Shown here piece by piece: positions 18,824-62,456 of a stretch of DNA of 64,000 nt (its first letter is position 1; the number at the start of each line of letters is the position of its first letter). Made by a program: the position numbers and the translations under genes. Source of the stretch: Eubacteriales bacterium (GTDB lineage: Bacteria; Bacillota; Clostridia; Oscillospirales; JAAYXM01); assembly GCA_045539475.1 (NCBI GenBank), contig JAZQFJ010000045.1, positions 2,024-66,023 on the forward strand, given 5' to 3'. The notes below the pieces were generated by a model. That model was not told the origin of the DNA. It saw nothing but the letters and a program-made list of their open reading frames with translations, and did no database searches.

Positions 18824-18926
18824 TGCGACGCAAAGTAAAAACAACATACCTAACCACCTCACAAAATCAATAATGAGATGAAATCCCAAAATAGAACAAG
18901 GCATTGTACACACTCGTGGCAACGCT

Positions 18927-40721: not shown

Positions 40722-40783
40722 ATTATCACACCGCCTTTTAGACTTTCTTATAACATTGTAACACATTTAACCGCCAAGGTCAA
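38980..40783 (-). mobile_element. Left-end module of an integrated element (junction in spoVT, recombinase and its promoter). The right boundary is not identified within the window.
   Basis: spoVT homology is lost abruptly at 38979/38980. The recombinase gene abuts the junction, and this segment is visibly AT-richer than the flanks. Confidence 0.55.
40755..40783 (-). promoter_or_regulatory. Promoter of the serine recombinase gene
   Basis: Minus strand: TTGACC, 17 nt, TACAAT, about 30 nt before the RBS. Confidence 0.55.
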
Positions 40784-41032
40784 GAAAATCTGTTGTAACT
40801 AATCCTTAGGAGTATGTTGCACAGCTTTTGGGTTAAATTTAACTACGAATGAACAATCCCCGTAACCCTTGATATTCCAAGGTTTTATCGGGGATTGTCT
40901 TGTTAATTTGTACTTTTTGTTTTTAGGCTGTTTTACCGCTTCAATTATTGGTTTTATAAATCCACTTTGCCAGCAAGCATTGCGAAAATGCATAAAGCTA
41001 CGCTCTTCACGGAAGTTTACATATGCTTAAAA

Positions 41033-42610
41033 TCACTTCTTAAAGCAGCGATCTGCAATGCGTCTCATATTTCCGCCAAGAATTTTCTTTTTATCCTCAA
41101 CAGATACGTTTGCAAAAGCAACCCATCCAAGCTGCGGACGAGGATCGCGCATCGGAGCATCCGTTCCATACAGCGTTTTGCTTGCAAGACCTTCCTCGCA
41201 AAGATACTCTATGACGCCTTCCGGAACGCTTGTAAACGTAAGTTGGAGATACACATTGTCATACTTCTTGGCAAGCACAGCATAGCTCTCTGCGCAAGCA
41301 AAGCTTCGTCCTGCATGGTCAAGGAAGAATGAAATATTCGGATACTTCTCGGCGAGTTCTTCCATGTCTGAAAGGTATGTGGGATATCCACCGCTGTCCA
41401 TAAGCGCAAAAAGGTGATTTTCATTTGCAATCTTAAGCCATGGTTCATACACTGGGTCGTTATATCTTACCCCTGTTCTTGAATAGAACATCTTCATTGC
41501 CGGCATCTTCTCTTCAATATGGTAGTGGTATGCCTCTTTCTCTATATCCTCCACATAGTTCGGATCAATGAGGACATACGGATAAACTCGCTTATCTCGT
41601 TTTGCCATATCTGAAACGAGAAGATTTCCCGCTTCGCTGTCTGTCCATATACCAAGCCACGGTGCCACGCAGTATTCATCAACACCCATTATATCGGAAA
41701 GCATTGACATGTGCTGAAGGTCTCCGTCAACCATAGAAAATCCTCCGCCACAGTTTCCGCCATTCTCAAGAAAATGTGCGTGTGAGTCAAACACAGGTGC
41801 GCTTATCGGCTTGCCCTCTGATGCTTCAACTGCAATTTCATCATTCTGCACCTCAACCTCGGTAGGTAAAGGAATGTTACAAAGCCTTGCAAGGTTTCCA
41901 CCTGCCATAAGTTGCTTTTCCTCATCGCTTATTTGAGCATAATCGATAAACGCACGTGCAGCACCCGGACACATCAGCGGAAGCCCGCTTCCCATACACA
42001 CACGCTCTGCTCCAAATTCCTTTGCTATGATTTCTACCGCAAAATTTGCCTGCATACTCGAAAGGTCAGTATACAGGTTGGGGTATTTTCTGAGATATGC
42101 AGCAAGGTTATGGAAATCAGACCACGCCGTTCCCTGAAGCAGAACATTAAGTTGCTTATGATTTGAAAGAATTGCAGAAAGCTCATCCCAGCTAATCTGT
42201 AGCTTGTCAATGAGAAGCGGTATTCCATCCTCTTCAAGTACACTGTAATATTCTCCCATCACATCCTCACACGGAGAGAAAATATGCGTTTTCGGGAACA
42301 TTTTTACCGCAACCATATTCTTACTTTTCATATCAGAAACAAATTCATCCGGCTTTAAGAAACTTCCTGTATATCCCGGGGCAATTACATAGCAACCATA
42401 GAAGCGACTGTGCTTTGAAAGCTCCTCCGCAAGGCGCTCGTTTCCGTAGGCGGGCGCGTAGTCGCGCGCCCATCCCGAATACACAAGCGCTCCAGCTATC
42501 CCTGCTCTATCCATTGCGGCAAGTATATCCTCGCTCTTCCATATTTCCCGATGGTCTTTAAGCCCACGTTTCCCTATACATACGTTTGAATCGAAATATA
42601 TCAGTGACAT
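41033..42610 (-). CDS. Amidohydrolase-fold protein with two metal-dependent hydrolase-like halves
   Basis: Two half-repeats start IYFDSNVCIG and VFDSHAHFLE. GAGGTG RBS before ATG 42610; the ORF track starts at GTG 42622. Confidence 0.55.
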   Translation of the reverse strand: MSLIYFDSNVCIGKRGLKDHREIWKSEDILAAMDRAGIAGALVYSGWARDYAPAYGNERLAEELSKHSRFYGCYVIAPGYTGSFLKPDEFVSDMKSKNMVAVKMFPKTHIFSPCEDVMGEYYSVLEEDGIPLLIDKLQISWDELSAILSNHKQLNVLLQGTAWSDFHNLAAYLRKYPNLYTDLSSMQANFAVEIIAKEFGAERVCMGSGLPLMCPGAARAFIDYAQISDEEKQLMAGGNLARLCNIPLPTEVEVQNDEIAVEASEGKPISAPVFDSHAHFLENGGNCGGGFSMVDGDLQHMSMLSDIMGVDEYCVAPWLGIWTDSEAGNLLVSDMAKRDKRVYPYVLIDPNYVEDIEKEAYHYHIEEKMPAMKMFYSRTGVRYNDPVYEPWLKIANENHLFALMDSGGYPTYLSDMEELAEKYPNISFFLDHAGRSFACAESYAVLAKKYDNVYLQLTFTSVPEGVIEYLCEEGLASKTLYGTDAPMRDPRPQLGWVAFANVSVEDKKKILGGNMRRIADRCFKK

Positions 42611-42618
42611 TTTAGTTT

Positions 42619-43335
42619 TCACCTCATCATTGTTTCAACAAGAGATGTTGCAAAAAGGTTATGCAGTTCCCTCGTCGGGTGATTTAATTTGTTTGACAAA
42701 AGCTCCGTCACATTGACACCGAGTTCTGCCATTCTCTTCCACTTTGCATAAACATCGCATACGGGAACATTCTCCTCCTCGCAGAGCGTTCTTGCCGCAT
42801 CCATATAGCGATCGAGCACACCGCGCCTTTGCCGGTCAGAAAGCTTTTCCGCAAGCTCAATAAAATCGGGGTGAATCGTTTCACTCACATTTTCCGCAAG
42901 CATACACGGCGTCATAAAGATTATCTCACTTTCCACTTCACGAAGACAACGGAAAATCTCGCGAAGGCTCTCTACATATTCAGCAAGTCCCTCGTCCTCT
43001 TTTCCGCAATCATTTAAGCCGAAGCAGACGACTGTGAGATCCGGATTTTTTGAAAGGACATCACGTTCTATACGAGAAAGTCCATATGCTGCCCCCGTTC
43101 CCGCAACGCCTGCATTGATGATATTAAGCGGCACTGTCGGAAAAAGAACACCGAGGATTTCCGAAACCTTTTTGTGATAGACGCTTTCGCGGTCAAAAAC
43201 ATTGTCATGTCCGCCGCTTCTTCTCGGAATAAGCTCAAAGCAACCTTCAGTCACGCTGTCACCGAAAAAAGCTATCGTCGGACGGGGATTGTTTGCATCC
43301 TGCGCCTTTTTTGCAATTTTTCCTATTATTTTCAT
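42619..43335 (-). CDS. SGNH/GDSL-family hydrolase (esterase)
   Basis: Block I IAFFGDSVTEG and block III GLNDCG. ATGA overlap with the upstream gene. Confidence 0.8.
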   Translation of the reverse strand: MKIIGKIAKKAQDANNPRPTIAFFGDSVTEGCFELIPRRSGGHDNVFDRESVYHKKVSEILGVLFPTVPLNIINAGVAGTGAAYGLSRIERDVLSKNPDLTVVCFGLNDCGKEDEGLAEYVESLREIFRCLREVESEIIFMTPCMLAENVSETIHPDFIELAEKLSDRQRRGVLDRYMDAARTLCEEENVPVCDVYAKWKRMAELGVNVTELLSNKLNHPTRELHNLFATSLVETMMR

Positions 43336-44189
43336 TTTATTATCTCTCCCAAAAACTTATCGGCAAACCATTCCTGCACCTTAGCTACATAATGCGCACG
43401 GTCGGACGCGAGAACACCATAGCACAAATTGTCGTTTTCATCCCAATAGAGGCAGTCGCGCGGATCAACGAGCTTTGCACCAATGCGTTTTGCCTGACGT
43501 ACAATTTCTTCGTTTATGATATCCTCGCTCTCAAGCGGGAGATTAAAACGTTCAAGTCCACCGCGAACAACTATCTTATAAAGATATGTCGGAACATCTC
43601 CGCCCATAGACTCACGCATAACATCGAAGTGATAATCATAACGCTCTTGAAAATCATCCCGGAGGTATGCTTCATGCCAAACCTCCTGTTCGCAACCGAG
43701 CCAGTGCCATCCGATAACCTCGGGATTCTTGCCTGCATCGGTCAGGTTCTTCATAACAAGGCGGTTTATATGCAGTGCGAGCGGGAGAAGCGAAATATCC
43801 GCTTCTCCGAGTATACCGGGCTTTATTACCGGTTCTTTGTCGCGGTTCCACATTCCGTTGATTATACCCTGACTTCCGATTGAAATCTGAACGATATAGA
43901 GGTCGGGCAACTTCTTTCCGGAATCAATCGCCGCCTGCCACTTCTTTGCGATGAAATATGCAAGACTTGCCGTGTGGTCCTGGCTTTCACCGAGATTCTT
44001 GCCCATACTTGTCCACCCGCTCCACGTAACGTCCGTTATATCAAGCGACTGGTTAGGATTTCTGTCAAGGCCGAATACATTTCTCATCGGTGTAAGCACC
44101 TTGTCCTCTTCGGAAAGAAACTGCTGGTGCGCCGTTGCATTAGACTGACCGTTTATAAAAAGCACGGCAGCTTTTGTGTTTTTGTTCAC
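43332..44189 (-). CDS. SASA/DUF303-like carbohydrate esterase (sialate O-acetylesterase-like)
   Basis: N-terminal LFINGQSNA (GQSN motif). GTG start 7 nt after AAGGAG. Confidence 0.5.
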   Translation of the reverse strand: MNKNTKAAVLFINGQSNATAHQQFLSEEDKVLTPMRNVFGLDRNPNQSLDITDVTWSGWTSMGKNLGESQDHTASLAYFIAKKWQAAIDSGKKLPDLYIVQISIGSQGIINGMWNRDKEPVIKPGILGEADISLLPLALHINRLVMKNLTDAGKNPEVIGWHWLGCEQEVWHEAYLRDDFQERYDYHFDVMRESMGGDVPTYLYKIVVRGGLERFNLPLESEDIINEEIVRQAKRIGAKLVDPRDCLYWDENDNLCYGVLASDRAHYVAKVQEWFADKFLGEIIK

Positions 44190-44200
44190 ACTGATACTCC

Positions 44201-44773
44201 TTATTCGGGCTTGGTTTCAAGCTTTAACGGGAAATCGCCGAGCTTATTTACCTTGAAGCCGTTTTTCTTATACTCTTCATAGTCAAATGCCTCAAGCTCG
44301 TCAATTGCAAGCTTATGGAACTCATAAAAATTCTTCCACCATTCATAGCCTGAGCCAAGTTCTGCATTAAGATATGCATCTGCAATATCACAGCCCATTG
44401 CCGGAGCAACATAAAAAGCACCCATAGCAAGAACGTTTACGCCGTTGCCCGTGATTGCGCGCAGTGCTGCAGGAACGCTCTCAACAACGCCTGCATGAAC
44501 GTGCGGGCATTTGCTTGCAGCGATATGGATACCCATACCTGTGCCGCAGAAGAGCAGTGCACGCTCAAACTCGCCCTCGCTTATCATTGAGCCGACGCGA
44601 AGACCGACTCTATGGAACATAAGGTCTGTATCATTCGGGTCGGAATCTTCTCTTACGCCTACGTCAGTTATCTTCCAGCCCTTTGCCTTAAGATGCGCAA
44701 CAACCGCTTCTTTAAGCGGGAATCCTGCAAAGTCTGCGCCCACAACAAGATATTTGTCTTTAACCAGTTTCAT
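44201..44773 (-). CDS. RpiB/LacA/LacB-family sugar-phosphate isomerase with C-terminal extension
   Basis: LFCGTGMGIHIAASKCPHVHAGV. GAGGAG RBS. Confidence 0.7.
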   Translation of the reverse strand: MKLVKDKYLVVGADFAGFPLKEAVVAHLKAKGWKITDVGVREDSDPNDTDLMFHRVGLRVGSMISEGEFERALLFCGTGMGIHIAASKCPHVHAGVVESVPAALRAITGNGVNVLAMGAFYVAPAMGCDIADAYLNAELGSGYEWWKNFYEFHKLAIDELEAFDYEEYKKNGFKVNKLGDFPLKLETKPE

Positions 44774-44798
44774 AATTCATTACTCCTCTATAAAAATT

Positions 44799-46250
44799 TT
44801 AATGTGCACATTTTCCGAATACCGTAAAGCTGATAACCCCCGGCTCTATCCCTTCCGGCGCACCGAGAACCGTTAGACGGACTTTTCTTGCTGTTACCGT
44901 CTCAAACGTGCGATAATCCACGCAATAGTCAATCTTATTTTCTGATGCGTCGACAAGCATTTTCCATTCGTCCGAATCCGGAGCTGAGTATTCAACTTTA
45001 TACTGAAAAGCACCAGGGTTGATTCCATCGAGTGTTTCCATCCCGACATCGCGCCAGATTATGCGGCAAGACTCGATGTGATAGCCCTTTTCCGCGGCGA
45101 GGTCAATTTCTAAAGTTTTCTCCTTATCCTCGGGAGTCGGTTGCCACCATGTAAGTGCGCAATCATCCGTTGCGTAAATCGGCTCACGTCCCGGCATATG
45201 GCTTGATGCCTCAACCGGCTGGAAAAACGTAAGTGGCAAAAGTCCTGCATCGTTGCCACACTCGGGTTCTTTCATAACTCCCGGTGCAAACTGCGGTGTT
45301 TCTGTGAGTGCAGGGCAGAAAAGCTCTCCATTTTCGTCAATACCGAGAGGATCCATACCGACTCTTCTTTCAAATTTATAGTGGTGACCAAAGAAATATG
45401 TATAGAATATCCAGTATGTATTGTCGGGCCCTTCTGCTATACTTCCGTGCCCTGCACCGCGGAGAAGTCCGGTAGGCTTACGTGTAAGCGGATCGTGCTT
45501 CTCCTGACGGCGAAATCCGGAAAGCGGACCTTCATCAGAATAGAGGATTCCACAAGCATAGGAAGAATACTGTGTGCCGCTTCCCGAATAGAGAAGATAA
45601 TAGCGCGAACCTATTTTTATCATCCACTGGCCTTCCGTCCATCCGATGCGCTCATTCTGATTATATTCACCGTGGCGCTCCCACTCTTTGTCGGGTGAGA
45701 ATGTGTTTATCCACACCGGTTCCGAGATAAGCTTCCACGGCTCATTCGGGTCGCATTCCGCACCAACGGTTCCGGTAACGCATTCAACATCCTCCCCTTC
45801 CTCAGGCTCTCTTATTTCACACCAGTAAAAATATAGCCGGTCATTCTCTGTAAAATAACAGCCGTCGGGAACTTTCATTTCATTCCCGTGCATATCAGTG
45901 AGGTTGCCGCAATGTTTGAAGGGACCTAAAGGACTATCCGCAACATACATTTCAGGCAGGCTGTGACCGCTTAAATACCACTTTCCGCGAAACTGTACCA
46001 CCGCAGGACTGTAACGCAGATTGTCAATCCCGATATCAACCTTTTTCCAATGAACAAAATCCTCAGTTACATGTGCAAGGCTGTAGCTTGCATACATAAT
46101 CCATTTTCCGTCGTGATATATAACGCTCGGGTCTGAAATAGAGCGGTAATCCTCAAAATTTCTTATATCAATCCCCGTGTGCTCTACATCCAGCCATCTT
46201 CCGCTGGCAACCTTCTCAACGCACAAGGGATTACAATATGTTCTTTCCAT
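44799..46250 (-). CDS. Beta-propeller glycoside hydrolase-like protein (GH43-like) with C-terminal discoidin/F5-8-type-C domain
   Basis: Blade-like DPSVIYHDGKWIMYAS, SPAVVQFRGKWYLSG, GAGHGSIAEGPDNTYWIFY. C-terminal ...IIWRDVG...KVRLTVLG. ATG 46250 (MERTYCNP) is preferred over the ORF-track start 46307. Confidence 0.55.
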   Translation of the reverse strand: MERTYCNPLCVEKVASGRWLDVEHTGIDIRNFEDYRSISDPSVIYHDGKWIMYASYSLAHVTEDFVHWKKVDIGIDNLRYSPAVVQFRGKWYLSGHSLPEMYVADSPLGPFKHCGNLTDMHGNEMKVPDGCYFTENDRLYFYWCEIREPEEGEDVECVTGTVGAECDPNEPWKLISEPVWINTFSPDKEWERHGEYNQNERIGWTEGQWMIKIGSRYYLLYSGSGTQYSSYACGILYSDEGPLSGFRRQEKHDPLTRKPTGLLRGAGHGSIAEGPDNTYWIFYTYFFGHHYKFERRVGMDPLGIDENGELFCPALTETPQFAPGVMKEPECGNDAGLLPLTFFQPVEASSHMPGREPIYATDDCALTWWQPTPEDKEKTLEIDLAAEKGYHIESCRIIWRDVGMETLDGINPGAFQYKVEYSAPDSDEWKMLVDASENKIDYCVDYRTFETVTARKVRLTVLGAPEGIEPGVISFTVFGKCAH

Positions 46251-46325
46251 TTTATTTTCCTTCTTTTGTATGTCTTTGCCCGCAAATGAAGCTTCATCTG
46301 CGGGCATATTTTTCTTACAAGGTGT

Positions 46326-47879
46326 TTACTTTACGCGATTATATGCAGATGTATATGCTGCAATGACTTCATCAACACCCATTGACTTTACAGTCTCAAC
46401 AAATGTATCAAAGTTAGAGAGCGGCTCCTGACCGAGAATGAACTTGATAAGCATTTCTTCTGTATATGTATAAAGTCCGGTCCTGTATGTTTCGATCACT
46501 TTCTGCTCTTCATCATTGAAGTCTAGCCACAATGTTACCGGATATTCAGGAAGCGTATGCTCAATGATGAGGTCTTCACTTTCAAGAGTTGTCTCGGACT
46601 GCATTGCCTCTGCAGCAAGCGGATCAAGGCGGCAGAATGTACCATAGGTCTGGAAGCCATACATTGTATCCGGAAGAGTTCCCGCTTCATCAGTAATGAA
46701 CTTCTTCTTTCCGTCAACAACTTCGTATGTCTCTCCTTCCTTACCCCATGAGACAAGCTCCATAGCCTCGTCGGTATACATCCAGTCAATGAACTTCGCC
46801 GCATTGCCTATTCCCTTTGTGTTTCCTGTGTCTGTAATCGAAAAGCCTATCATTTCAAGGTCGCCGCGTTCGATCATGGAAACTCCCTTTTCGGGGTTTG
46901 CAACAGGAGGTGCAAGTGCCTGAAGCTTATAGTCTGTTTTTCCGCCCTTCTTTGCGAGCTGGTTGAAATAATCTATGCGAAGCTGAAGGTGCGGCAAGAT
47001 AAAGCCGCGATCTGTAAGCATAAGCTCTTCCCATGTAGCATTGTTGAGATTATACGCATCTGCTGGCATAAGCTTTTCTTCAATCATCTTCTTATAGAAT
47101 GATACAATCTCAAGAGCCGTATCTTCGATTGCACCCCAACGCCACTCGTCATCGTCAAAATCATAGTAGATACCATATTCCCACCATTTATCAAATGATG
47201 AACCGGCAATGTTGAACATATATGACATAGAGCGTGTGCAGAACGGGTAAGAATCCGGATAAAGCTCCTTAAGCTCCTTACATACTGAATAAAGCTCCTC
47301 ATAAGTTTCCGGAACCTTGAGGTTATGCTTTTCGAAAATATCCTCACGATAGAGCCATGCACGCATACGGGTTTTTCCCTCGCGACCCGAACCCGGAGTG
47401 TAGTAAACCTTTCCGTCAGCGCGCTTTCTCGGCTTGACTGCTACATTGTATTCCTCTTCAGAAAGGGACTCGAGCCATGCATTGTAGTTAGGCATATACT
47501 CTTTTAAATCATCAAAAGCAATAAGCCCTTCTCCTGCATATTGGGAATGTGTTCCCGCAACGCTGAATGCAATAATATCCGGAAGCTCTTCGCGGGCTGC
47601 AAACATAATCGGAAACTTTGTGGCTGCATCTGACGCAGGAACGGCAATAATGTTGAGCGTTGCGCCGGAGCCTTCCTGCATATATTCCCAAATCTTCCAG
47701 TCTTCGCGAACAGGCCAGCTTGCAGATGACTCAACCATAAAGTTAATAACATCATCTTTTGTGAGCGGCTCTGCTGCATCCGTACCGTCAAGCTGCGTTG
47801 CTCCACCACTGACACCGCCGCAAGCGCAAAGTGCAAGCATCATAATTGCGGCAAGGATTAATGCGATAAGTCTTTTCAT
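46326..47879 (-). CDS. Extracellular solute-binding lipoprotein (ABC family-1 type, large ~517 aa); no permease genes adjacent
   Basis: MKRLIALILAAIMMLALCACGG lipobox. AAGGAGG RBS before ATG 47879. Confidence 0.75.
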   Translation of the reverse strand: MKRLIALILAAIMMLALCACGGVSGGATQLDGTDAAEPLTKDDVINFMVESSASWPVREDWKIWEYMQEGSGATLNIIAVPASDAATKFPIMFAAREELPDIIAFSVAGTHSQYAGEGLIAFDDLKEYMPNYNAWLESLSEEEYNVAVKPRKRADGKVYYTPGSGREGKTRMRAWLYREDIFEKHNLKVPETYEELYSVCKELKELYPDSYPFCTRSMSYMFNIAGSSFDKWWEYGIYYDFDDDEWRWGAIEDTALEIVSFYKKMIEEKLMPADAYNLNNATWEELMLTDRGFILPHLQLRIDYFNQLAKKGGKTDYKLQALAPPVANPEKGVSMIERGDLEMIGFSITDTGNTKGIGNAAKFIDWMYTDEAMELVSWGKEGETYEVVDGKKKFITDEAGTLPDTMYGFQTYGTFCRLDPLAAEAMQSETTLESEDLIIEHTLPEYPVTLWLDFNDEEQKVIETYRTGLYTYTEEMLIKFILGQEPLSNFDTFVETVKSMGVDEVIAAYTSAYNRVK

Positions 47880-47944
47880 TTTATTTCCTCCTTGTTTTTT
47901 CATGGTCCGGTGGGAGAAAATCTCCCACCGACCGTTTTTTACTG

Positions 47945-50900
47945 CTACGCGATATAGTCGAGAATTCTCTTGATGAGAACTGCAACCTCTGCACGGGTGG
48001 TGTTAGCAAGCGGGTCAATAAGACCGTTCTTACCGTTGACAAGCTCTGCCTTGACAAGCGCAGAAACCGCTTCCTTTGCATAATCTGCAACTTCATTGAA
48101 ATCAGCCGCCTGAGGCTCATCTTCCGCTGCGGTGATTTTCTCCATCGAATACAGTGCACGATAAACTATAACCATCATATCCTGACGGGTTATTGTGTTT
48201 CTCGGTGCGTATTTATTGTCACCGATGCCGTTTACAATACCTGCATTGCGTGCTATTGCAAGCTCTGATGCGAAGTAGTCATTTTCATTTACGTCTGCAA
48301 AGTTTTCGGTATTGTCCGATGCGAGCTTGAATGCACGGACAAGCAGGAGCGCGAAGTCTGCGCGCGTTATATTCGCGGATGGACTAAACGTACTTGCAGA
48401 CGTGCCCTTTATTATTCCATCCTCTGCAAGATAGTTTATCGCGCTCTCTGCCCATGCGTGATTAGAAAGGTCTGTGAAACGGATAGTATCCGTTTCACCC
48501 GACGCGTCGGGTGCGGTGTTCGCATCATCTGCAGTTTCGCCGTTTTCTGTGCCATCGGGGGCTTCCTGCTTATCGGTAGGTGCGGCATCTCCGCCACCAC
48601 CGCCGCCTCCGCCACCGCCGGACGGTGTGGTGGTATCATCGGTGCTTCCGGAATTGTCGGTTGACTGGTTATCATCTGCCGATGGCTTACTTGTCGTCGA
48701 ACCGTAGACCGTTACCGTAAAGTGAACAGTTGTTTCCGTAATCCCGTCAGTCACGGTTATTGCAAAGTGATTGTCGCCAACCTGCGAGCTATCCGGTTTC
48801 CATGTGACGGTCATATCATTTGCGCTTACGGTTGCTCCTCGCGGAAGCGATGTTCCAACAGCCCAAATTGCTCTTCCCGCAGGGCTGTATGCGCTTATCG
48901 GAATTGATATAGAGCTTCCTGCCGAGGTTGTATAGTTCTTGGGTTGAACAACATTCGGTGCACTGTCATAAATGCTTGAAACCGGAATTCTGAGCGTTTG
49001 CCCCTCATCAATATTATAAACATATCCGCGAGCTGTGTTATTTACGTCAACATAGCTTCTGATTAGGGAAACATCACCTATATTAAGCTTAATATTTCCG
49101 TCTTCGACAGATGCAGACTCGATTCTGTATGCGCCGTTCCGGACTCCGTCGTTCTCGACATATACAAACTTACCTGCGAGAGCCTCATTAGCAGCCTTCG
49201 TATCGTTAAGAGCAATCTCATTATCGGGCTTGTAAACGATATAGTTCTCCTTTGAAAGATCTTCTGTGAAGCTCTGAACCTTTCCTGTGTATGCCGCGAT
49301 TGCTTCTTCGGTTTCAGTATCACCAACGAGTTTTAAAACCTCACCGTCGTTGAGATATGAGTGGATGATTTTTCCTTCCTTATCAAAAGAAATTACACCT
49401 GCAAAGCCACGGAAGTTTATTTTATCCTCTATAACATAATCAACCGAATTATTGGTTGAATACATTATATAATCAACTCTTCCGTTCTTAAGAGTTACCT
49501 TGACTGCACTGTAAGCGTCAAGAACACCCGGCTTTGAATCTTCCTCACGGACCATCGGAACCTTTTCAATTTTTTCAATATACTTATTCGTTACATCATA
49601 CGGTTCAAAAACGGTCGTGAATACCGTGTCAAGATTTGTTCCGCGATTTCTGACAAGCATATATTCAAGGTTTCCTGCATGAGCGTTGCTCTTATTCTGC
49701 GGAGGCAGCGCCTTTGCAAAGGATACTTCAGAAACAGGACTGTCATTCAGCATCGTGACTCTCAGGCGGACATCACGTTTCTTATCCATAACCTTTTTCC
49801 AGTCCTTGACATTGAACTCAACAGTGAAATCCTTTTCAACAGAGTTATAGGTACGTACATCACGAAGCCATGTATATCCTTTCGGGTAAACTTCAGAACC
49901 GGCACCACCCGGGTCCGGACCGTATTTTACATCGGGACCTGCATATGTACCGTAAAGGTTTCCTTTATCATCCGTATACATCGGTGTCGCTTCCATATCT
50001 CCAAGACCGGAAATAGCCGTATGCTCATCGGACTGGCTGTGGAAGCTGTAGAGATGGTCGTCGCCGCCCTTGATATGGAAGAAGTCAACACCATAAGAAA
50101 TTTCATCATCGACATCAACCATAACTACCGATCTTCTGTATTCCTCAGTATTGCTGTACACATCGGCGCTTATATCCATAAGCTTGACGCGTCCGGAATC
50201 ATCGAAGTGTATCGGAGTCTGAGTAGCCTTAATTGTCTCCTGCTCATTCTCATCAACGACAACCGTGTTGTGAGAAATCGTTGTGCTTACCCACTGAACG
50301 CGGTTCGGCTGCTGACCAGTTTGCTCCGGATATCCGATATCGGGAGCGATATTGAGACCATATGCATCTGCAAAGAGGTTCAATGTATCGCGGTGACCGT
50401 GCATATCATTTTTTCCGAAATAGATTGCAAAGTCGCGATGCGTGTTGTTATAGCTTGATGTGCTTGCGGAGTCATGTTCTCCGCCGGCGCGAAGCGCGGC
50501 AAAACCGTAGCCTGCAAGCATATCACTGGGAAGAGCAAGCTTTCCTTCCGTTTCAATTACCTCTTCAATATCCTTTGTAAGCTGCTCGGGATCGTCATCA
50601 AGGATACTGCCGCGAAGCTCGATTCCACGCGTCTCATGCAAGAAGTAAAGCGCCTGAGCAAGAATCGGCTGCTTCGTGTTCTTATATGCCAGAAGAATAT
50701 CATCCTCTACAACTGCAAGACCCGTTCCTCCGATTGCACCGAAGTCGCCTGTGTGCGAGGTGTAGTAACCGCCGAGAAGCAGACGGATCTGAGCCGCAAA
50801 CATCTTTGTAAACTTCGGGTTTTCATAAAGGTCAGCCTGCGGATAAAGCTCAAATCCACGCAAAAGCTCTGCAACGCCCTGGAAGTGCGTAATCAATTCG

Positions 50901-56395: not shown

Positions 56396-56466
56396 TTTTT
56401 CCTCCTTGTGGAAATGTGTAAGGGGCAAGCAAGCCTCCCTCCGTGTGTGAAGGGAGGCTTGTTTTT

Positions 56467-59400
56467 TTAGTCGCTGTATACTACTTTGTATTCACTGCCA
56501 TCCTGATAAATCATATATCCGCGTGCTGCTGTCTGCGTGCTGTTTGCAGGCTTTGCGGTAAACTGACCGTGGCCGGTAGTTCCGCCCTTTTCCTGTGAAA
56601 CTGCCTTATATTCGCAGCTGTCAACCGTTCCGCCTTCGCTGCCACCAAAGAGTATACCGACTTCGACAATTGTCTTTCCGCCTGCATCGTATTCTATCAT
56701 GTATGCATTTGTGCCGGTTGAGTCTGTCTTGACCGCCTTGTCAAGCACAACAAGCGGCTGTGCCGTGCCTTCAACATAAGTAATTTTTTCTACGTTGTCC
56801 CATACATAATATTCGTATGTTGTGCCGAAGCCTACGCGTACATCGTCACGATACCAGACAACAGAATCCTTATCATTGTAGGTTCTTGTAATCTTTGTGT
56901 CGTATTTGAGATCTTCTACACCGTCAACGGTAAATCTGTCGCCTGTGTCTTCGAACACCGCAACTGCACGGGTAACCGGTGCTGTAAGAACTGTTTCGGA
57001 AAGTTTTGTATCCTTTGCCGTGAACCAGTCAAGGAACTTAAATCCCGTAAGGCTCGGTGCGGCAGGAGCCTCTACTTTATCGTCAACAACATTGACAGTT
57101 GTAATATATTCGCGGTTTCCGTTGAAGAACTCAACTATCTTTGCATCCTCTTCTACATTCGGTGTGTAAACCGCTGTAAGGTAAGTGTTTGTGATAAGCT
57201 TATAGGTAAAGCTTGGCTCTGTTGAAACAAGCTCACCTTGTTCTTCCGTTCCGCGTACCCAACGGCGGAAGGTATAACCTTCTATCTCCGGAGCTTCGAT
57301 TTCAACCTCGTCGCCGCGTCTGTACTGACTACCCTCAACCGTAATTTCCTTGTTGACATTGTCTGTAAGCGCAAGGGAAACATACTGATTTTCTACGTCT
57401 TCGCTGAGCGCCGACACCCAATCAAGCTCAAGGCTCTCTAACATTGCAAAAGCTTTGCCCTCGGAATCGTTACCGTTTCCTAACTCGGATATGAGGACGA
57501 TAACGTAATATTCATCATCAGAAAGCTTAATGGGGTTTCCAGATTTCTTCTCGTCCGAGGTGCTCATATCTGCAGAAACAACGAGCTTTACACCGGCGGT
57601 GTCAGCAGCAATATCCGCCAAGTTTGTACCATTCGCCATTGACCATCTTGCATTGGCATACGCAGCAGGTACGATGTATGTGTTTACGATTGAATTGTTG
57701 GTTCTTGCATCCCAAGTCACAGCCGGTGTGTATATGCCGGGGTTTTCAACGGGAATTTTCAGAACATATCCGCCGTTTCCGATATATGTGCCATTAACTC
57801 TGAAATTCAATCCGTAATCAGTCACACTGCCTGTCTCGATGTTCGTTTTGCACATATATCTCCACGGAGCGGAAACTGCTGAATCAATATTTGTATATCT
57901 CATAAGCTCTAATAATGTTCCGTCGGTGGCTTGCTTTGTGAATACATACTTTACATCTCTTGAAACGGTTATATCAATAGTGCTTGTAAATTCAACACCG
58001 CATGAGGATGCCGTTACCTGAATGGTTGCTGTGCCTTCTTCAACGCCGGTGACAACACCGCTGTTATCTACTGTTGCAACGGAAGGGGCAAGGCTCTTAT
58101 ATGTAACACTGCTTGTAGGAGCAGTATTTCCTGCCTCATTCTTAAGAGCCACAGAAACAGTTGCCGTCTCGCGGACTTTTACGGTATCCTTAGAAGCTGT
58201 GAGAGCAACCGCGGACTGAGGTGTGAGAGTAAGACCTTTTGTTTTGAAATAAGCATTTGACACGTGAGTTGATACCCCATTTCCTTCAAAAAGGCTTATA
58301 AGAACATAATATTCTCCCGAACCGAGATACACATCGCCGTATTCACCTGTTATATTCGCAGTGCTTCCACTACTTACCCAACCGTTCTGGGAAGCGACAA
58401 GCTTTACCCCCTCGTCACCGAACACCTCTGCAAGATTTAAGTTTGTATCGCTCATTGTCCATTTGCTGTCCGCATAGGAAACAGGAACAAAGTAAATATT
58501 CAATTTTCCGTACTGAGAATACGTCGTGTAAACCATAGACGGCGTATATGTTCCCGAATTTTCAACCTTTGCCTTTAAGATAAACGCGTTATTTCCGAGA
58601 TTGCCCTTTGCAGCACGGAAGGTTGCACCACCATCTGCATCAGGATACATTGTATATCCGTCCATTCTGTGACAGAAACCCGAGTACATCCATGCACCTG
58701 TTGAAATGCTGCTGTCAAGCTGAGTATAATCTTTCATAAATCTCATATCCTGACTGGCAACACCAGCCTTTACTGCCTCTGCAACAAAAGAATATACAAC
58801 AGGTGCAGCTTCAACTGCATCCTCAGATGTGAGAGTAAGCTTTGTAAGCATACCCCAGATGTTGCTGGCATCTTCCGTTCCGGGGGACGGGTCAGTAGTG
58901 CTGTCGCTTGCAACTACAAACATATAATAATCTCCGGCAAAGAGATATACATTTTCTGCAAGCTCATCATCAGCCCCCGTTGCATTGTAACATGCATCGT
59001 AAGAAGCGATATGCTTTACAGAAGCTGCAGGATCATTCATTGACGATACTGCTATTGCTGCCTGAATGCCGCCGATTGTCGCTACATTCCAGCCCTTTGC
59101 TGTCACAACATCCTTGCTTACAAGATATATATCAGTCCACTCATTGTTGTAATAGTTTTTATAGCCCGAAACCGACGCAGTATATGATCCGGATGCCGGA
59201 ACATTTATGGTAAATACCACTGCATTGTTATTAGGAGTTATCCCGGCGCGAGCGGTCTTGAAGTAGAGACCGTTATCCTGGAATGGGGCATTGTCTACGT
59301 TTATCAGGCGCTCAAACTTCCAGTAGTTTGACTTTTCTTCGTTAACGGTATAATTGTTGACATCTGAGTATTTTACAGTATCCGTGCCGTGAGGCGTACC

Positions 59401-59544
59401 GTCAGGCTCTAAAAGAGCTGTGCATCTAAAATCATACTCGAGAGTGGTTGTGGTCGCCTCACCCTCTGCCGCAAATACCGTCGGAAGCATACCTCCTATC
59501 ATGCATATTGTGAGTAGAAATGCTAAAAGTCTTTTGCTTTTCAT
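56467..59544 (-). CDS. Secreted 1025-aa protein made of three module copies, an Ig-like domain and C-terminal Listeria/Bacteroides-type repeats
   Basis: Signal peptide MKSKRLLAFLLTICMIGGMLPTVFA. AAGGAGGAG RBS before ATG 59544. Motifs GYTFRRWVRG...LTAVY and GFKFLDWFTAKD. Confidence 0.85.
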   Translation of the reverse strand: MKSKRLLAFLLTICMIGGMLPTVFAAEGEATTTTLEYDFRCTALLEPDGTPHGTDTVKYSDVNNYTVNEEKSNYWKFERLINVDNAPFQDNGLYFKTARAGITPNNNAVVFTINVPASGSYTASVSGYKNYYNNEWTDIYLVSKDVVTAKGWNVATIGGIQAAIAVSSMNDPAASVKHIASYDACYNATGADDELAENVYLFAGDYYMFVVASDSTTDPSPGTEDASNIWGMLTKLTLTSEDAVEAAPVVYSFVAEAVKAGVASQDMRFMKDYTQLDSSISTGAWMYSGFCHRMDGYTMYPDADGGATFRAAKGNLGNNAFILKAKVENSGTYTPSMVYTTYSQYGKLNIYFVPVSYADSKWTMSDTNLNLAEVFGDEGVKLVASQNGWVSSGSTANITGEYGDVYLGSGEYYVLISLFEGNGVSTHVSNAYFKTKGLTLTPQSAVALTASKDTVKVRETATVSVALKNEAGNTAPTSSVTYKSLAPSVATVDNSGVVTGVEEGTATIQVTASSCGVEFTSTIDITVSRDVKYVFTKQATDGTLLELMRYTNIDSAVSAPWRYMCKTNIETGSVTDYGLNFRVNGTYIGNGGYVLKIPVENPGIYTPAVTWDARTNNSIVNTYIVPAAYANARWSMANGTNLADIAADTAGVKLVVSADMSTSDEKKSGNPIKLSDDEYYVIVLISELGNGNDSEGKAFAMLESLELDWVSALSEDVENQYVSLALTDNVNKEITVEGSQYRRGDEVEIEAPEIEGYTFRRWVRGTEEQGELVSTEPSFTYKLITNTYLTAVYTPNVEEDAKIVEFFNGNREYITTVNVVDDKVEAPAAPSLTGFKFLDWFTAKDTKLSETVLTAPVTRAVAVFEDTGDRFTVDGVEDLKYDTKITRTYNDKDSVVWYRDDVRVGFGTTYEYYVWDNVEKITYVEGTAQPLVVLDKAVKTDSTGTNAYMIEYDAGGKTIVEVGILFGGSEGGTVDSCEYKAVSQEKGGTTGHGQFTAKPANSTQTAARGYMIYQDGSEYKVVYSD
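58216..58806 (-). repeat. Module copy C (in the 1025-aa protein), closest to copy A
   Basis: APVVYSFVAEAV...ILKAKVENSGTYTPSMVYTTYSQYGKLNIYFVPVSYADSKWTM...GEYYVLISLFEG...LTLTPQ. Long nucleotide identities to 55700-56296 are visible. Confidence 0.85.
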
Positions 59545-59780
59545 TTTAAACTCCTCCTTGTAATTTAAAGGCATAATTGCCCTTTGATACAATAATACTA
59601 TTTTTCTTGTGCCCATTCAACCGATACCCTTTACACATCGGGCAAATATAATCTTTGACACTTCCGAAAACATATGCCGTACCCCAAGCGAAAAGCCCGG
59701 GGTATAGCAAATGTTTTACGAAAAGGTCAAGGTGCAAACAAACGCAGAAACTATCGAAAAACAATAAATAAATATTTATT

Positions 59781-61157
59781 TTACAGGTTGAATTTTTCTT
59801 TTGCTGCGGCTAATGCCAAATCGAATGTTGCCATCATTTCGTCAACATTTTCCTTTGTGAATACAATGGGAGGTGCAACAACGATTAAATCGTCATTGTT
59901 TCTCATAATAAGTCCGTGGTCATAGCAGAAATCGTTAATAAATGTACCAACATGATAATCGGGATTAAGCGGAACAAGCTCATCTCCCTTGGTGTATGCA
60001 AGCTCAATACAGAGCATAAGCCCAAGCCCCTCATATCCGGATACAAAGTTGTATTTAGCCATGAGCTTTTCTATTCCTTCTTTTATGTAAGCGCTGAGCA
60101 TATTACATCTTTCAACAAGCTTGTTTTCCTCTATATAATCAAGAGTTGCGATAGCTGCTGCGCATGCAAGGTTGTGAGCACCGAAGGTGTTACCGCTTAC
60201 GAACTCGTTGCCCGGCTTTTCGCGGAAAGAATCCATGATTTTCTGCTTCATTGCGCACATACCCATCGGCATCATACCGTTAGTAAGAGATTTTGCAGTA
60301 GTTAAAATATCGGGAGTTACACCATAAAGCTCGGACACGAACATAGCACCGCTCTTTGCAATACCGACCTGAACTTCATCGAAAATGAGAAGAATTCCAT
60401 ATTCGTCGCAAAGCTCTCTTACCTTCTGCAAATAGCCATCAGGAGGAACGGGATAGCCTGAATTGGAGCCGGGAAGCGGATCCATTATAAGGCAGGAAAT
60501 TGTCTCAGGGTCATTGTCGATAATTGTCTGACGCAAAGACTCGATACAATCCATATTGCAGGTTGCCTTTTTCTTTCCCAGATGGCAGTGCTTGCAGTTA
60601 GCACCGAAGGTTCTTATAACAAACGGATTTACCATCGGCTCATAATTTTTTCTGAAGTAATCAAGGCAGGTAAGAGACATGGTTGTAACGGTTGTTCCGT
60701 GGTAGGAAGCCTGTCTTGCTATTACCTTATACCTCTTATCGTCCCCTCTGTTTACGTGGTAGGAACGAGCCATCTTGACTGCTGCATCGTTAGCTTCCGA
60801 ACCGCTTGATACAAAGAAGTAAGAAGAAAGACCCTCAGGCATAATCTTATCAAGTCTCTTTGCAAGCTCAATTGCGGGCATGCAATAGTCATCACCGAAG
60901 TTAGGGAAGAAATCTATCTTCTTAAACTGTTCGTTCATTGCATCCATAATAGCCTGGTTATTGTGTCCGCAAATAGTTGTTAAAAGCGAACCAAAGGTGT
61001 CAAGATAACGAGTTCCGTGAATGTCATAAACATAAACGCCTTCGCTTCTGTCATAAATTTTGGGGTGCTTGTCAATATCAGCATTTACCGCATAGTGAGT
61101 ACAAACGTGCTTCGCCGCATACTCTTTTATTTCTTTGATTTCCTTATCTGTATACAT
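59781..61157 (-). CDS. Class-III (omega) pyridoxal-phosphate aminotransferase
   Basis: SGSEANDAAVKMAR, DEVQVGIAKSG, and DILTTAKSLTNG (PLP lysine). AGGAGG RBS. Confidence 0.85.
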   Translation of the reverse strand: MYTDKEIKEIKEYAAKHVCTHYAVNADIDKHPKIYDRSEGVYVYDIHGTRYLDTFGSLLTTICGHNNQAIMDAMNEQFKKIDFFPNFGDDYCMPAIELAKRLDKIMPEGLSSYFFVSSGSEANDAAVKMARSYHVNRGDDKRYKVIARQASYHGTTVTTMSLTCLDYFRKNYEPMVNPFVIRTFGANCKHCHLGKKKATCNMDCIESLRQTIIDNDPETISCLIMDPLPGSNSGYPVPPDGYLQKVRELCDEYGILLIFDEVQVGIAKSGAMFVSELYGVTPDILTTAKSLTNGMMPMGMCAMKQKIMDSFREKPGNEFVSGNTFGAHNLACAAAIATLDYIEENKLVERCNMLSAYIKEGIEKLMAKYNFVSGYEGLGLMLCIELAYTKGDELVPLNPDYHVGTFINDFCYDHGLIMRNNDDLIVVAPPIVFTKENVDEMMATFDLALAAAKEKFNL

Positions 61158-61178
61158 AATTTGCCTCCTAAATATAAA

Positions 61179-62201
61179 TTATTTCAAAATACCCATTCTG
61201 GACTCGATGTACGAGATGCTGTCAAGCACCCAGCCTGAGAAGCAAGCTGCGTGGTCGATATAAATAAGCAGAATATCCGGCTCATCGTCATACCAGAGGC
61301 CGCCTGCATACTTACCGTCCTTATCCTTAACCTTAACCTGTGTTTCCACAACAAAGTCGATAAACTTAACTGCTGCTTCCATAGCTCTTTCATCGCCTGT
61401 AAAGGAGTAGTACATAGCGCAGCCGAGTGCTGCTTTTCCGCTTCCCCAGTAGCTCCATGTGTCTTCTGCACAGGTAAACAAAAATTCCATATAACGCTTT
61501 GTATATCCAAGATATTTTTCATCCTTGGTAATCTGATACAAGCGATTCATAAGAATCATGGCAAAACCACATTCCCAATAGCACTGCTTAAGCTTTTTAT
61601 TATCAATGAATTCGCCGCCGTCAGCCTCTAATGCGAGCTTACCGTCTGGTGTGGTCATAAAATAAAATCTGTTCTTATCCGGCTGAGCTTCCAAAACGTT
61701 GATGCACCATTCAGCACACTTTAATGCTGTCTCCATATCGTTAAAATACAGGGCTGTTGTTCCAAACCATGCAGTTGTCATCATTCGCGCATTGGGCATT
61801 CCCTTCTGTAACGGGAAACCGCCGCAAGGCATCGCCAAAGTTTTTGTGAAATTATATACAGGATAAGACACATCAAAACGACCTAAACGGTGCGCACCCT
61901 GACAGGTCCATGCGTGCTTGTAAACATCCACGTTGTTTTCAGTATCATTTATATCCTCGGTTAAAATCAAAGAGCCATCAGGACGAAGACGATTATCTCT
62001 GATCCAGGTTAAAAGGCGATGAGCCTCTTCGTTGTTACCGACAAGATTCCATGAATAAGCCTGCTTATGGAAAGCATCGGGAACGTAACCATCCCATATG
62101 TATCCGCCATCCTCCTGCAAGAAGCCAAGCTGAAAGTCAACAGCTTTTCTTATAGCCTTGCGGCCTGCTTCGAATTTAATTTGTAATTCCGCTTTGTTCA
62201 T
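61179..62201 (-). CDS. Hypothetical 340-aa cytoplasmic protein, Trp/Tyr-rich (possibly alpha/alpha-toroid fold)
   Basis: ORF track. AAGGAGG RBS before ATG 62201 (MNKAELQIKF). The fold guess rests on composition only. Confidence 0.6.
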   Translation of the reverse strand: MNKAELQIKFEAGRKAIRKAVDFQLGFLQEDGGYIWDGYVPDAFHKQAYSWNLVGNNEEAHRLLTWIRDNRLRPDGSLILTEDINDTENNVDVYKHAWTCQGAHRLGRFDVSYPVYNFTKTLAMPCGGFPLQKGMPNARMMTTAWFGTTALYFNDMETALKCAEWCINVLEAQPDKNRFYFMTTPDGKLALEADGGEFIDNKKLKQCYWECGFAMILMNRLYQITKDEKYLGYTKRYMEFLFTCAEDTWSYWGSGKAALGCAMYYSFTGDERAMEAAVKFIDFVVETQVKVKDKDGKYAGGLWYDDEPDILLIYIDHAACFSGWVLDSISYIESRMGILK

Positions 62202-62244
62202 CTTAATTTCCTCCTTATGAATTATCGAATACATTATACACTAT

Positions 62245-62260
62245 TGGAAAACGTTTTTCA
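62245..62260. promoter_or_regulatory. LacI-family operator candidate 1
   Basis: TGGAAAACGTTTTTCA contains the perfect palindrome AAAACGTTTT. It lies next to the start of the minus-strand operon. Confidence 0.55.
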
Positions 62261-62401
62261 AGTGTTTTGTAAAAAATTTTTAGCTTTTCTATTTTTGCCA
62301 AAAACCTTGATATTCATAGGCTTTGCGGGATTTTTTCATAATTTTTCCAAAAAAATTCTAAAAAATTTTTTTAAAAACACCAAAGAAATCAGCGTTAATT
62401 T

Positions 62402-62417
62402 TGGAAATCGTTTTCCA
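62402..62417. promoter_or_regulatory. LacI-family operator candidate 2
   Basis: TGGAAATCGTTTTCCA, with 7 of 8 half-site symmetry, 10 nt upstream of the lacI-type gene -35. Confidence 0.55.
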
Positions 62418-62427
62418 TTTTTTGCGT

Positions 62428-62456
62428 TTGACACTGTTTTTAATTTGTGTTATGAT
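62428..62456 (+). promoter_or_regulatory. Promoter of the LacI-family regulator gene
   Basis: TTGACA, 17 nt, TATGAT. Confidence 0.6.

What the first reader, a model, noticed from the sequence alone, without database searches (positions are those of the whole stretch)
41033..62234. A 21-kb single-strand polysaccharide locus begins right behind the recombinase and may be cargo of the spoVT-inserted element
From 62201 down to 41033 ten genes run on the minus strand, under a divergent LacI regulator with two palindromic operators. In order they are:

- an unknown 340-aa protein
- a class-III aminotransferase
- a 1025-aa surface protein
- a 2816-aa surface protein
- a solute-binding lipoprotein
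- a GH43-like/discoidin protein
- an RpiB-like isomerase
- a SASA-like esterase
- a GDSL esterase
- a double amidohydrolase

The spoVT 3' part does not reappear before 64000. If the insertion is a single element, this whole locus lies inside it. A paralogous pair of genes sits outside it at 1-6274, consistent with duplication or horizontal spread of the module family. A glycan-degradation locus carried by a serine-recombinase element inserted in a sporulation gene would be an unusual cargo and target combination.
Basis: inference. Interest (0 to 1): 0.6.

Follow-up and report, generated by a model that had tools for sequence, protein, structure and literature searches.

The report
Glycan-degrading gene block beside spoVT-splitting recombinase
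A roughly 26-kb block of sugar-polymer-degrading genes native to this bacterial group sits directly beside the recombinase of the DNA that splits the sporulation gene spoVT, and is probably a captured passenger of that mobile island, though the fragmented assembly cannot prove it.

Summary
Ten co-directional genes (41033-62201, minus strand) lie under a divergent LacI gene with two palindromic operators, starting 266 nt upstream of the large serine recombinase (LSR) ORF.

I found the second junction on another contig (C67: attR, spoVT 3' part, tagA, tmk). A relative (G002) shows the empty site, DUF436-spoVT-tagA-tmk. The two junctions carry matching inverted-repeat arms and are the only two such sites in the assembly. 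So the locus lies on the element side of attL, but the MAG cannot be closed between the junctions.

The locus is not foreign. Its composition is typical of the genome and its best homologues are all in the genus. In close relative G010, which has an intact spoVT and no such LSR, the orthologous ~26-kb unit (amidohydrolase to GH2 and AraC) abuts both sides of the DUF378|ackA gap. That gap is empty in this genome. One of the two continuations of the contig (C43) ends the unit exactly as in G010 and then enters island-backbone DNA (amidoligase).

Related spoVT elements with both junctions on one contig carry 25-kb surface-polysaccharide biosynthesis clusters, so large glycan cargo has precedent.

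Odds: captured passenger inside a mosaic LSR island about 0.52; later rearrangement about 0.27; assembly artefact about 0.08. An earlier scan report covered the spoVT insertion itself.

The parts
38878..38979 (+). spoVT 5' fragment (34 codons, MKATGIV...REGDPL), preceded by its promoter region and the DUF436 gene
   Evidence: It is identical in register to the intact spoVT of G002 (L028).
38968..38994 (.). attL: shared core GGCGACCC (38968-38975) plus element arm CTGACAACATTGACA (38980-38994)
   Evidence: The partner arm TGTCAATGTTATCAG plus the same core lies on C67:30240-30266, next to the spoVT 3' part.
38871..40721 (-). Large serine recombinase. The likely start is MVKTPD at 40721, and the ORF is open up to 40766. 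The last ~38 residues are antisense spoVT.
   Evidence: Resolvase, Recombinase, Zn_ribbon_recom domains.
40755..40783 (-). Recombinase promoter TTGACC-17-TGxTACAAT
   Evidence: 10 of 12 consensus matches, extended -10.
40796..40944 (+). 148-nt island-type segment with a hairpin (40853-40898). A 76% identical copy follows Fic/DUF3846 genes on contig C26.
   Evidence: The inner stem differs by compensatory changes (CCTTG/CAAGG versus ACACT/AGTGT).
41033..42622 (-). Protein with two Amidohydro_2 stretches. This is the last gene of the operon and the left end of the ~26-kb unit.
   Evidence: It is 93% identical to G010:C148. Homology to G010 stops at the stop codon.
42619..43335 (-). GDSL esterase
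43332..44189 (-). 285-aa protein with no family match
44201..44773 (-). RpiB/LacA/LacB-type sugar-phosphate isomerase
44799..46307 (-). GH43 domain plus F5/8-type-C (discoidin) domain
46326..47903 (-). Solute-binding lipoprotein (SBP_bac_1). No ABC permease gene is in the unit.
47945..56428 (-). 2827-aa SLH-anchored enzyme with a heparinase II/III-like domain
56467..59616 (-). 1049-aa Ig-domain surface protein. It shares N-terminal modules with the giant enzyme (76% over 220 aa).
59781..61157 (-). Class-III (omega) aminotransferase
61179..62201 (-). AprG-like atypical transaldolase-family protein (340 aa; RBS AAGGAGG before the ATG at 62201)
   Evidence: (PDB 9c95/9lfi, E 5e-18).
62245..62428 (.). 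Control region with two LacI-type palindromes (62245-62260 and 62413-62428)
62487..63524 (+). LacI-family regulator
63656..64000 (-). 3' part of a GH2-family gene. It runs off the contig 130 nt later, where the assembly forks to C43 (GH2, AraC, then amidoligase island DNA) or C9 (GH2 paralogue/allele, then more glycan genes).

Best explanation
The stretch is a LacI-controlled glycan-catabolism unit of about 26 kb. It comprises an AprG-like enzyme, an aminotransferase, two SLH/Ig surface proteins including a heparinase-like giant, an SBP, a GH43, an isomerase, esterases, an amidohydrolase, and then GH2 and AraC. The unit belongs to this genus's own accessory gene pool.

In this genome it lies physically inside the DNA that separates the two halves of spoVT, directly upstream of the island's recombinase gene. 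It got there as a block by recombination into a mosaic LSR island. That island's backbone is the LSR, an amidoligase/GATase-type module and an AlbA_2 ATPase. The unit did not arrive together with the recombinase, whose relatives are phage and island integrases from other families.

**Shown:**
- the two att junctions and the empty site;
- the unbroken recombinase-locus join;
- the native composition;
- the different location of the unit in G010, and the empty DUF378|ackA site here.

**Inferred:**
- that contigs C45, C43 and C67 are parts of one insert;
- that the insert can still excise;
- that the operon, which has no terminator before the recombinase promoter, reads into the recombinase gene.
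For: 1. attL and attR share the core GGCGACCC and inverted-repeat arms. They are the only two arm sites in the genome. G002 has the uninterrupted order DUF436-spoVT-tagA-tmk.
2. C45 runs from spoVT 5' through the LSR into the locus. No contig end maps to its interior, and there is no repeat of 80% identity or more at the join.
3. The unit behaves as a discrete, relocatable block.
   - In G010 its amidohydrolase end abuts the DUF378 terminator and its AraC end abuts ackA.
   - Here DUF378-ackA is contiguous, as in 12 other genus members.
   - G002 and G011 have only 74-81% homologues of parts of it and no match to its AT-LacI end.
4. C43 shares the terminal 141 nt with C45. It carries the GH2 part most like G010's (92.7%, against 88.9% for C9) and the AraC gene as in G010. 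It then enters Amidoligase_2 island DNA.
5. The closest LSR relative (80% identity) sits in a spoVT element that contains amidoligase C-terminus/GATase/small-resolvase and AlbA_2-HATPase_c_4 genes. These are the same module types as on C43 and on the attR side of C67.
6. There is precedent for large glycan cargo. Elements of 31.7 kb (G317, a one-contig genome) and 29.4 kb (G374), each with both spoVT halves on one contig, carry surface-polysaccharide biosynthesis clusters.
Against: - The insert is not closed. attR is on another contig with only 2 kb of element DNA. Orientation and distance are unknown.
- The contig end forks. The alternative path (C9) leads into at least 31 kb of further glycan genes with no mobile genes.
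- No other genome or metagenome contig shows this recombinase linked to this locus.
- Composition is fully native.
- The module similarities to the closest element are distant: AlbA 24% and GATase 43-45% identity.
- The recombinase lies in the opposite orientation to nearly all of its relatives, so some unusual event did occur at this site.
Confidence: 0.52

Rival explanations
1. Post-insertion rearrangement. A small phage- or island-type element inserted into spoVT. Later an inversion or translocation with one break just upstream of the recombinase promoter brought ordinary chromosomal glycan loci next to it. On this reading the locus is chromosome, not cargo, and the two spoVT halves may no longer be in an excisable arrangement.
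For: - The recombinase is flipped relative to nearly all homologues, which read in frame into the spoVT 3' part.
- Homology to G010 ends exactly at the amidohydrolase stop, and the operon's terminator is missing.
- The locus is compositionally native.
- The C9 continuation holds only glycan genes.
- Three other flipped recombinases (P0011, P0013, P0018) are also next to glycan or dockerin genes rather than mobile genes. One of those genomes has no SpoVT_C at all.
- Relative G008 shows a rearranged spoVT region.
Against: - The reciprocal junction was not found.
- The site where the unit sits in G010 is intact and ancestral-like here.
- Both att sites are intact, and the spoVT 3' part is 94-97% identical in protein to relatives.
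- The C43 path puts island DNA at the other end of the unit.
- These genomes are so rich in glycan loci that a glycan neighbour is weak evidence either way.
Confidence: 0.27
2. Assembly or binning artefact. C45 is a chimera of two strains or two loci of a mixed population, so the recombinase and the locus are not neighbours in any real genome.
For: - The genome is a 105-contig MAG with 4% contamination.
- Both ends of C45 are graph forks.
- C9 and C43 are 89%-identical alternatives.
Against: - No contig end (127-, 77- or 55-mers) maps inside C45.
- 38985-41033 has no other copy in the bin except a 76% identical 148-nt segment.
- Both sides of the join belong to the same lineage: the flank is 96% and the amidohydrolase 93% identical to sister genomes.
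Confidence: 0.08
3. Fixed relic. The insert is real and contains the locus, but it is an old, immobile remnant. The recombinase no longer excises it, spoVT is permanently split, and the locus is now ordinary chromosome in effect.
For: - No phage genes of the related phages are in the bin.
- No directionality factor was identified.
- The flipped relatives look like relics.
Against: - The recombinase ORF, its promoter, both att sites and the spoVT 3' ORF are all intact.
- No homologue of this recombinase at E<=1e-80 in 13 genus members searched. The five closest relatives have nothing above 29% identity, and sister genomes have an intact spoVT. The insertion is therefore younger than about 5% core divergence.
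Confidence: 0.1

Closest known systems
Gene-intervening elements of sporulation genes excised by large serine recombinases: SPbeta in spsM (SprA/SprB), skin in sigK (SpoIVCA), gin in gerE (PMC4191935, PMC5499854, PMC5595907)
   Same: A large serine recombinase sits at the edge of an insert that splits a sporulation gene at a precise core. Both halves are intact and can be rejoined in frame. The att arms are imperfect inverted repeats.
   Different: - The target is spoVT, a forespore regulator in Bacillus (my knowledge). It is not among the targets named in the papers found.
- The DNA next to the recombinase is a catabolic glycan operon, not phage or small-element genes.
- Excision, a directionality factor and closure of the insert are all unshown.
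Polysaccharide-utilisation loci carried on integrative conjugative elements in gut Bacteroides, such as the porphyran PUL of B. plebeius
   Same: A complete, regulated glycan-degrading gene set behaves as a transferable block. It has a patchy distribution and different locations among close relatives.
   Different: - This is a Gram-positive locus: SLH-anchored enzymes, an SBP, and LacI and AraC regulators.
- The carrier has a serine recombinase and no conjugation genes were seen.
- The locus is compositionally native, and co-transfer with the element is not shown.
SCC-type islands moved by Ccr large serine recombinases
   Same: A mosaic island carries a large serine recombinase and variable cargo. 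The recombinase matches the CcrB/CcrC models.
   Different: The matches are far below the family cut-offs (98 and 84 bits against 900). The target gene is different and there is a single recombinase.
spoVT-inserted elements of other Clostridia found here (G317, G374, G049, L117, L134)
   Same: They belong to the same recombinase family (50-80% identity) and use the same core in spoVT. Two of them carry ~25-kb glycan-related clusters inside closed junctions.
   Different: - In those elements the recombinase is at the spoVT 3' side and reads in frame into it. Here it is at the 5' side, antisense.
- Their glycan cargo is biosynthetic (RmlB-like, GT2, ABC-2, Glf, HldE-like), not degradative.

Membership tests
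LSR-bounded gene-intervening element in a sporulation gene | Large serine recombinase with Resolvase, Recombinase and Zn-ribbon domains at the edge of the insert | tested here: met
   (E 3.5e-15, 2.6e-23 and 4.6e-13). The gene ends 5-15 nt from the att arm.
LSR-bounded gene-intervening element in a sporulation gene | Target gene split into two halves that rejoin in frame, with an empty site in relatives | tested here: met
   The 5' half is at 38878-38979 and the 3' half on C67. G002 and G010 have an intact spoVT.
LSR-bounded gene-intervening element in a sporulation gene | attL and attR share a core and carry the two arms of one attP | tested here: met
   The arms match the attP of a related free phage contig (L119).
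LSR-bounded gene-intervening element in a sporulation gene | One contiguous insert between the two junctions, in direct orientation | tested here: inconclusive
   The junctions are on C45 and C67. The graph forks at both contig ends and cannot be walked.
LSR-bounded gene-intervening element in a sporulation gene | Excision that restores the gene (during sporulation), with a directionality factor | not testable with these tools
No RDF candidate was examined.
Mobile-element-borne glycan-utilisation locus | The locus lies between the element's two ends | tested here: inconclusive
   It lies on the element side of attL, and island DNA follows the unit on C43. The C9 path is the alternative.
Mobile-element-borne glycan-utilisation locus | The same locus and the same element are found together in another host or site | tested here: not met
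   None was found in 401 genomes of the order, in genome contigs, in metagenome contigs or in viral contigs. G010 has the unit without the element.
Mobile-element-borne glycan-utilisation locus | Patchy presence and different location among close relatives | tested here: met
Mobile-element-borne glycan-utilisation locus | Composition differs from the host genome | tested here: not met
   The tetranucleotide distance falls at the 37th-54th percentile of random 5-kb genome pieces. GC is 43-47%, against 44.4% for the genome.
Gram-positive polysaccharide-utilisation locus (regulator + transporter + CAZymes) | Regulator, carbohydrate-active enzymes, and a complete ABC transporter | tested here: inconclusive
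   LacI, AraC, GH43, GH2, the heparinase-like domain and the SBP are present. No permease or ATPase gene is in the unit.

The most novel reading that the evidence does not exclude
The 26-kb catabolic unit is a cassette that shuttles between a chromosomal hotspot (DUF378|ackA) and recombinase islands that split spoVT. Because the LacI-controlled operon runs without a terminator into the recombinase gene, availability of the glycan would tune recombinase expression. Excision linked to spore formation would then produce spores that differ in whether they carry the glycan-utilisation island. That would be a developmental switch of metabolic gene content.
Probability: 0.1. Interest if true: 0.75.

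Novelty: new variant of a known kind. Interest (0 to 1): 0.45.

Why it matters
If the unit is truly inside the insert, elements that interrupt sporulation genes would include carriers of large metabolic cargo, not only prophages or small selfish DNA. Here and in relatives they carry whole glycan-degrading or glycan-synthesising clusters. That ties spore development, or at least the integrity of a spore regulator, to the gain and loss of gut-relevant carbohydrate functions.

The comparison with G010 also gives a concrete case of a complete Gram-positive glycan-utilisation unit relocating as a block between close species. This bears on how the two- to three-fold genome-size range in this genus arose. 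If it is instead a rearrangement, the finding is an ordinary accessory locus next to a stranded recombinase.

Tried and rejected
**Searches that led nowhere.**
- Walking the assembly graph. Only four 127-mer edges exist. The nodes beyond C67/C21 and beyond C43 are not in the bin.
- Exact look-up of the recombinase in public assemblies: not on record.
- Protein-seeded scan of metagenome contigs: nothing.
- Exact-pattern scans for the attR flank in metagenome and viral contigs: nothing.
Coverage, spanning reads and excision junctions could therefore not be examined.
- Earlier scan notes on relatives: none.
- Mapping the borders of the C26 island in relatives: they lack the region.

**Ideas considered and rejected.**
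- A minimal recombinase-only element ending near 41.0 kb. No second att arm exists in the window or elsewhere.
- A hidden second copy of the unit collapsed in assembly. There is no copy of 85% identity or more, and there are no internal forks.
- An SPbeta-like prophage remainder elsewhere in the bin. No homologues of the related phages' genes were found beyond housekeeping paralogues.
- Import of the locus with the recombinase from outside the genus. Composition and best hits are native.
- Using the composition contrast of 41-62 kb against 25-38 kb as a discriminator. Both regions are typical.

Full report
**The locus**

The window is G000:C45:2024-66023 of a 105-contig, 2.98-Mb MAG (97% complete, 4% contamination).

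Ten ORFs run on the minus strand from 62201 to 41033, with gaps of 0-164 nt.
- The '340-aa unknown' matches AprG, the atypical transaldolase of apramycin biosynthesis (PDB 9c95, E 5e-18). A review (PMC13707489) describes AprG as cleaving GlcNAc or GalNAc through a Schiff base.
- The 285-aa 'SASA-like' protein has no match in Pfam, NCBIfam or PDB.
- The giant protein has 3 SLH domains and a heparinase II/III C-terminal domain.

LacI is divergent. The intergenic region holds two LacI-type palindromes, TGGAAAACGTTTTTCA and TGGAAATCGTTTTCCA.

The 'paralogous pair' at 1-6274 is half right. The 1540-aa protein is related to the giant enzyme (31% over 421 aa). The 542-aa protein shares only an N-terminal module with its own neighbour. 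This parallels the way the 1049-aa protein shares N-terminal modules with the giant (76% over 220 aa).

**The junctions**

- The spoVT 5' fragment (34 codons, 38878-38979) ends in the core GGCGACCC, followed by the arm CTGACAACATTGACA and the 3' end of the recombinase gene.
- The SpoVT_C model finds the 3' part on contig C67 (E 5.7e-40). It is preceded by TGTCAATGTTATCAGTGAAGGCGACCC and followed by tagA-like and tmk genes.
- G002 has the uninterrupted order GFO-DUF436-spoVT-tagA-tmk. G010 has an intact spoVT followed by tagA and tmk.
- The two arms are inverted repeats of each other. They match the attP of a related free phage contig (L119). They are the only two such sites in the genome.

So attL and attR belong to one recombination system, and the locus lies on the element side of attL.

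**Why the insert cannot be closed**

- C45 ends 130 nt beyond the window and forks by a 141-nt overlap.
  - One branch is C9 (30.9 kb), by eye only further glycan-type genes.
  - The other is C43 (4.9 kb), 89% identical to C9 for 2 kb.
- C67 carries only 2 kb of element DNA, an AlbA_2/HATPase_c_4 gene. It ends in 141 nt shared with C21, next to another recombinase island.
- No contig end maps inside C45 at k = 127, 77 or 55.
- The segment 38985-41033 is unique, apart from a 76% identical 148-nt stretch on C26.

I therefore rate mis-assembly at the recombinase-locus join as unlikely.

**Origin of the locus**

- Composition is typical. Tetranucleotide distance to the genome falls at the 37th-54th percentile of random 5-kb pieces. 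The recombinase segment has 40% GC and the C67 element end 37%.
- All good homologues are within the genus. Only G010 has an orthologous unit, at 80-93% DNA identity. G008 has just the LacI-AprG-like-aminotransferase block (89%).
- In G010 the amidohydrolase stop is followed after 21 nt by the terminator and 3' end of a DUF378 gene. Here those lie at C27:59165-59307.
- At the other end of the G010 unit, GH2 and AraC are followed by ackA.
- In G000 the DUF378-terminator-ackA stretch is contiguous. The same is true in 12 other genus members.

So the same ~26-kb block occupies different places in two genomes that are about 94-96% identical in flanking core DNA. Its borders fall at the last codons of the amidohydrolase and AraC genes.

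**Which fork is right**

- In the GH2 gene, C43 is 92.7% identical to G010, against 88.9% for C9.
- C43 carries the unit's AraC gene, as G010 does. The next best AraC paralogue in the bin is only 40% identical.
- Right after AraC, C43 runs into multi-copy island DNA that includes an Amidoligase_2 gene.
- The closest relative of the recombinase (P0002, 80%) lies in a spoVT element whose interior holds an amidoligase C-terminus, a GATase, a small resolvase and an AlbA_2/HATPase_c_4 gene.
- These are the same module types as on C43, on the attR side of C67 and in the C85 island. The sequence identities are low (24-52%).

This is why I favour the order attL, LSR, unit, amidoligase module, (unassembled DNA), AlbA_2 gene, attR.

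**The recombinase family**

- Homologues occur in 33 of 400 other genomes of the order searched, but none at E<=1e-80 in the 13 genus members in that search; in the five closest relatives, G002 among them, the best hits are at most 29% identical.
- Among the 120 best database hits, most are about 730 aa and are recombinase fused in frame to SpoVT_C. In those the gene sits at the spoVT 3' side.
- Forms of 615-622 aa are free phage genomes carrying attP.
- A few forms of 626-640 aa are flipped like this one, with an antisense spoVT 5' tail.
- Elements with both junctions on one contig measure 14.3 kb (type I R-M cargo), 29.4 kb and 31.7 kb.
  - The two larger ones carry surface-polysaccharide biosynthesis clusters: RmlB-like dehydratase, GT2, ABC-2 transporter, Glf and HldE-like.
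  - Large glycan-related cargo in spoVT elements is therefore real.

**Points for the rearrangement rival**

- This recombinase is flipped.
- The other flipped examples also have glycan or dockerin genes rather than mobile genes on their 5' side.
- One identical recombinase unit has different upstream DNA in two metagenomes.
- One flipped genome has no SpoVT_C at all.
- The bin contains no phage genes.

Against this, the reciprocal junction is not seen and both att sites and both spoVT halves are intact. Glycan loci are also so numerous in these genomes, with dozens of SBP-giant-enzyme modules per genome, that a glycan neighbour carries little weight.

**Mechanism**

The unit most likely degrades an acetylated polymer containing amino sugars or uronates.
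- At the cell surface: the SLH lyase-like enzyme, the GH43, the esterases and the SBP.
- Downstream, processing the products: the GH2, the AprG-like enzyme, the aminotransferase, the isomerase and the amidohydrolases.

This is inferred from family names only.

The recombinase promoter (TTGACC-17-TGxTACAAT) lies 250-278 nt downstream of the amidohydrolase stop, on the same strand. No predicted terminator lies between them. The strong terminator that follows the gene in G010 stayed with DUF378. Read-through from the induced operon into the recombinase gene is therefore plausible but untested.

**Verdict**

The scan had already reported the spoVT insertion itself (e1-2814186).
- the attR contig;
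- the relocated unit in G010;
- the fork analysis;
- the glycan cargo of related elements.

Noticed in passing
window 38871-40766; loci L112-L117, L120-L123, L133: This recombinase lies antisense at the spoVT 5' half. Nearly all homologues lie at the 3' half and form one ~730-aa ORF, recombinase fused in frame to SpoVT_C. The att core polarity relative to the recombinase gene is flipped here (TC instead of GA read in the gene's direction). The same holds in three other lineage examples (P0011, P0013, P0018).
   Followed up: partly
L027 (G011:C22) 195-407 and 2119-2304: Sister genome G011 has two tandem copies of the spoVT promoter plus the first 34 codons. They are separated by a 1.7-kb DUF3990 + HTH element. 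Each copy is broken about 5 nt further in than here and joined to different arms. A second, unrelated recombination system therefore targets almost the same codon of spoVT.
   Followed up: partly
L026 (G008:C39) 18310-18900 and G008:C39:88039-92908: In G008 spoVT lacks its first ~10 codons, lies inverted relative to DUF436, and abuts three tandem large serine recombinase genes (23-29% identical to this one).
   Followed up: no
G000:C27:59245-59325; L100, L106, L107, L108, L109: The DUF378|ackA intergenic region is an insertion hotspot in the closest relatives. G010 holds the 26-kb glycan unit there. G011 has an insert bounded by ACTACCGGC..GCCGGTAGT hairpins. G002 has other DNA at the site.
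   Followed up: partly
window 40796-40944 and G000:C26:10703-10851: A conserved 148-nt segment with a hairpin whose inner stem differs by compensatory changes. In both places it lies between island genes and the 3' end of a glycan gene. On the + strand it looks like a terminator, but no + strand gene precedes it in the window.
   Followed up: partly
window 59781-62201: The first two genes of the operon are an AprG-like (atypical transaldolase family) protein and a class-III aminotransferase. This hints at C-C cleavage and transamination of an N-acetylhexosamine-type product, which is not part of standard lyase-product pathways. The same three-gene block with LacI is conserved at 89% in small-genome relative G008.
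   Followed up: partly
window 46326-56428 and many contigs of G002, G006, G010, G011: The SBP plus giant SLH enzyme pair is repeated dozens of times per genome in the larger genomes of the genus. The unit has no ABC permease or ATPase, so the SBP may act as a surface glycan binder rather than as a transporter component.
   Followed up: no
L095+L096 (G317:C1:1503500-1543499), L085+L086 (G374:C16): spoVT-inserted elements of 31.7 and 29.4 kb carry complete surface-polysaccharide biosynthesis clusters (RmlB-like, GT2, ABC-2, Glf, HldE-like) between closed att junctions.
   Followed up: partly
window 1-141 (C45:1-141) and C27:1-141, C72 end: The left end of C45 is also a graph fork. C45 and C27 begin with the same 141 nt, and C72 flows into both. 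This is probably a repeat within paralogous giant surface-protein genes.
   Followed up: no
L121 9540 / L122 3586: A recombinase unit that is 100% identical over 2372 nt (P0011, flipped type) has entirely different DNA starting 461 nt upstream of the gene in two metagenomes. The recombinase-proximal border is therefore a recurrent break point.
   Followed up: no
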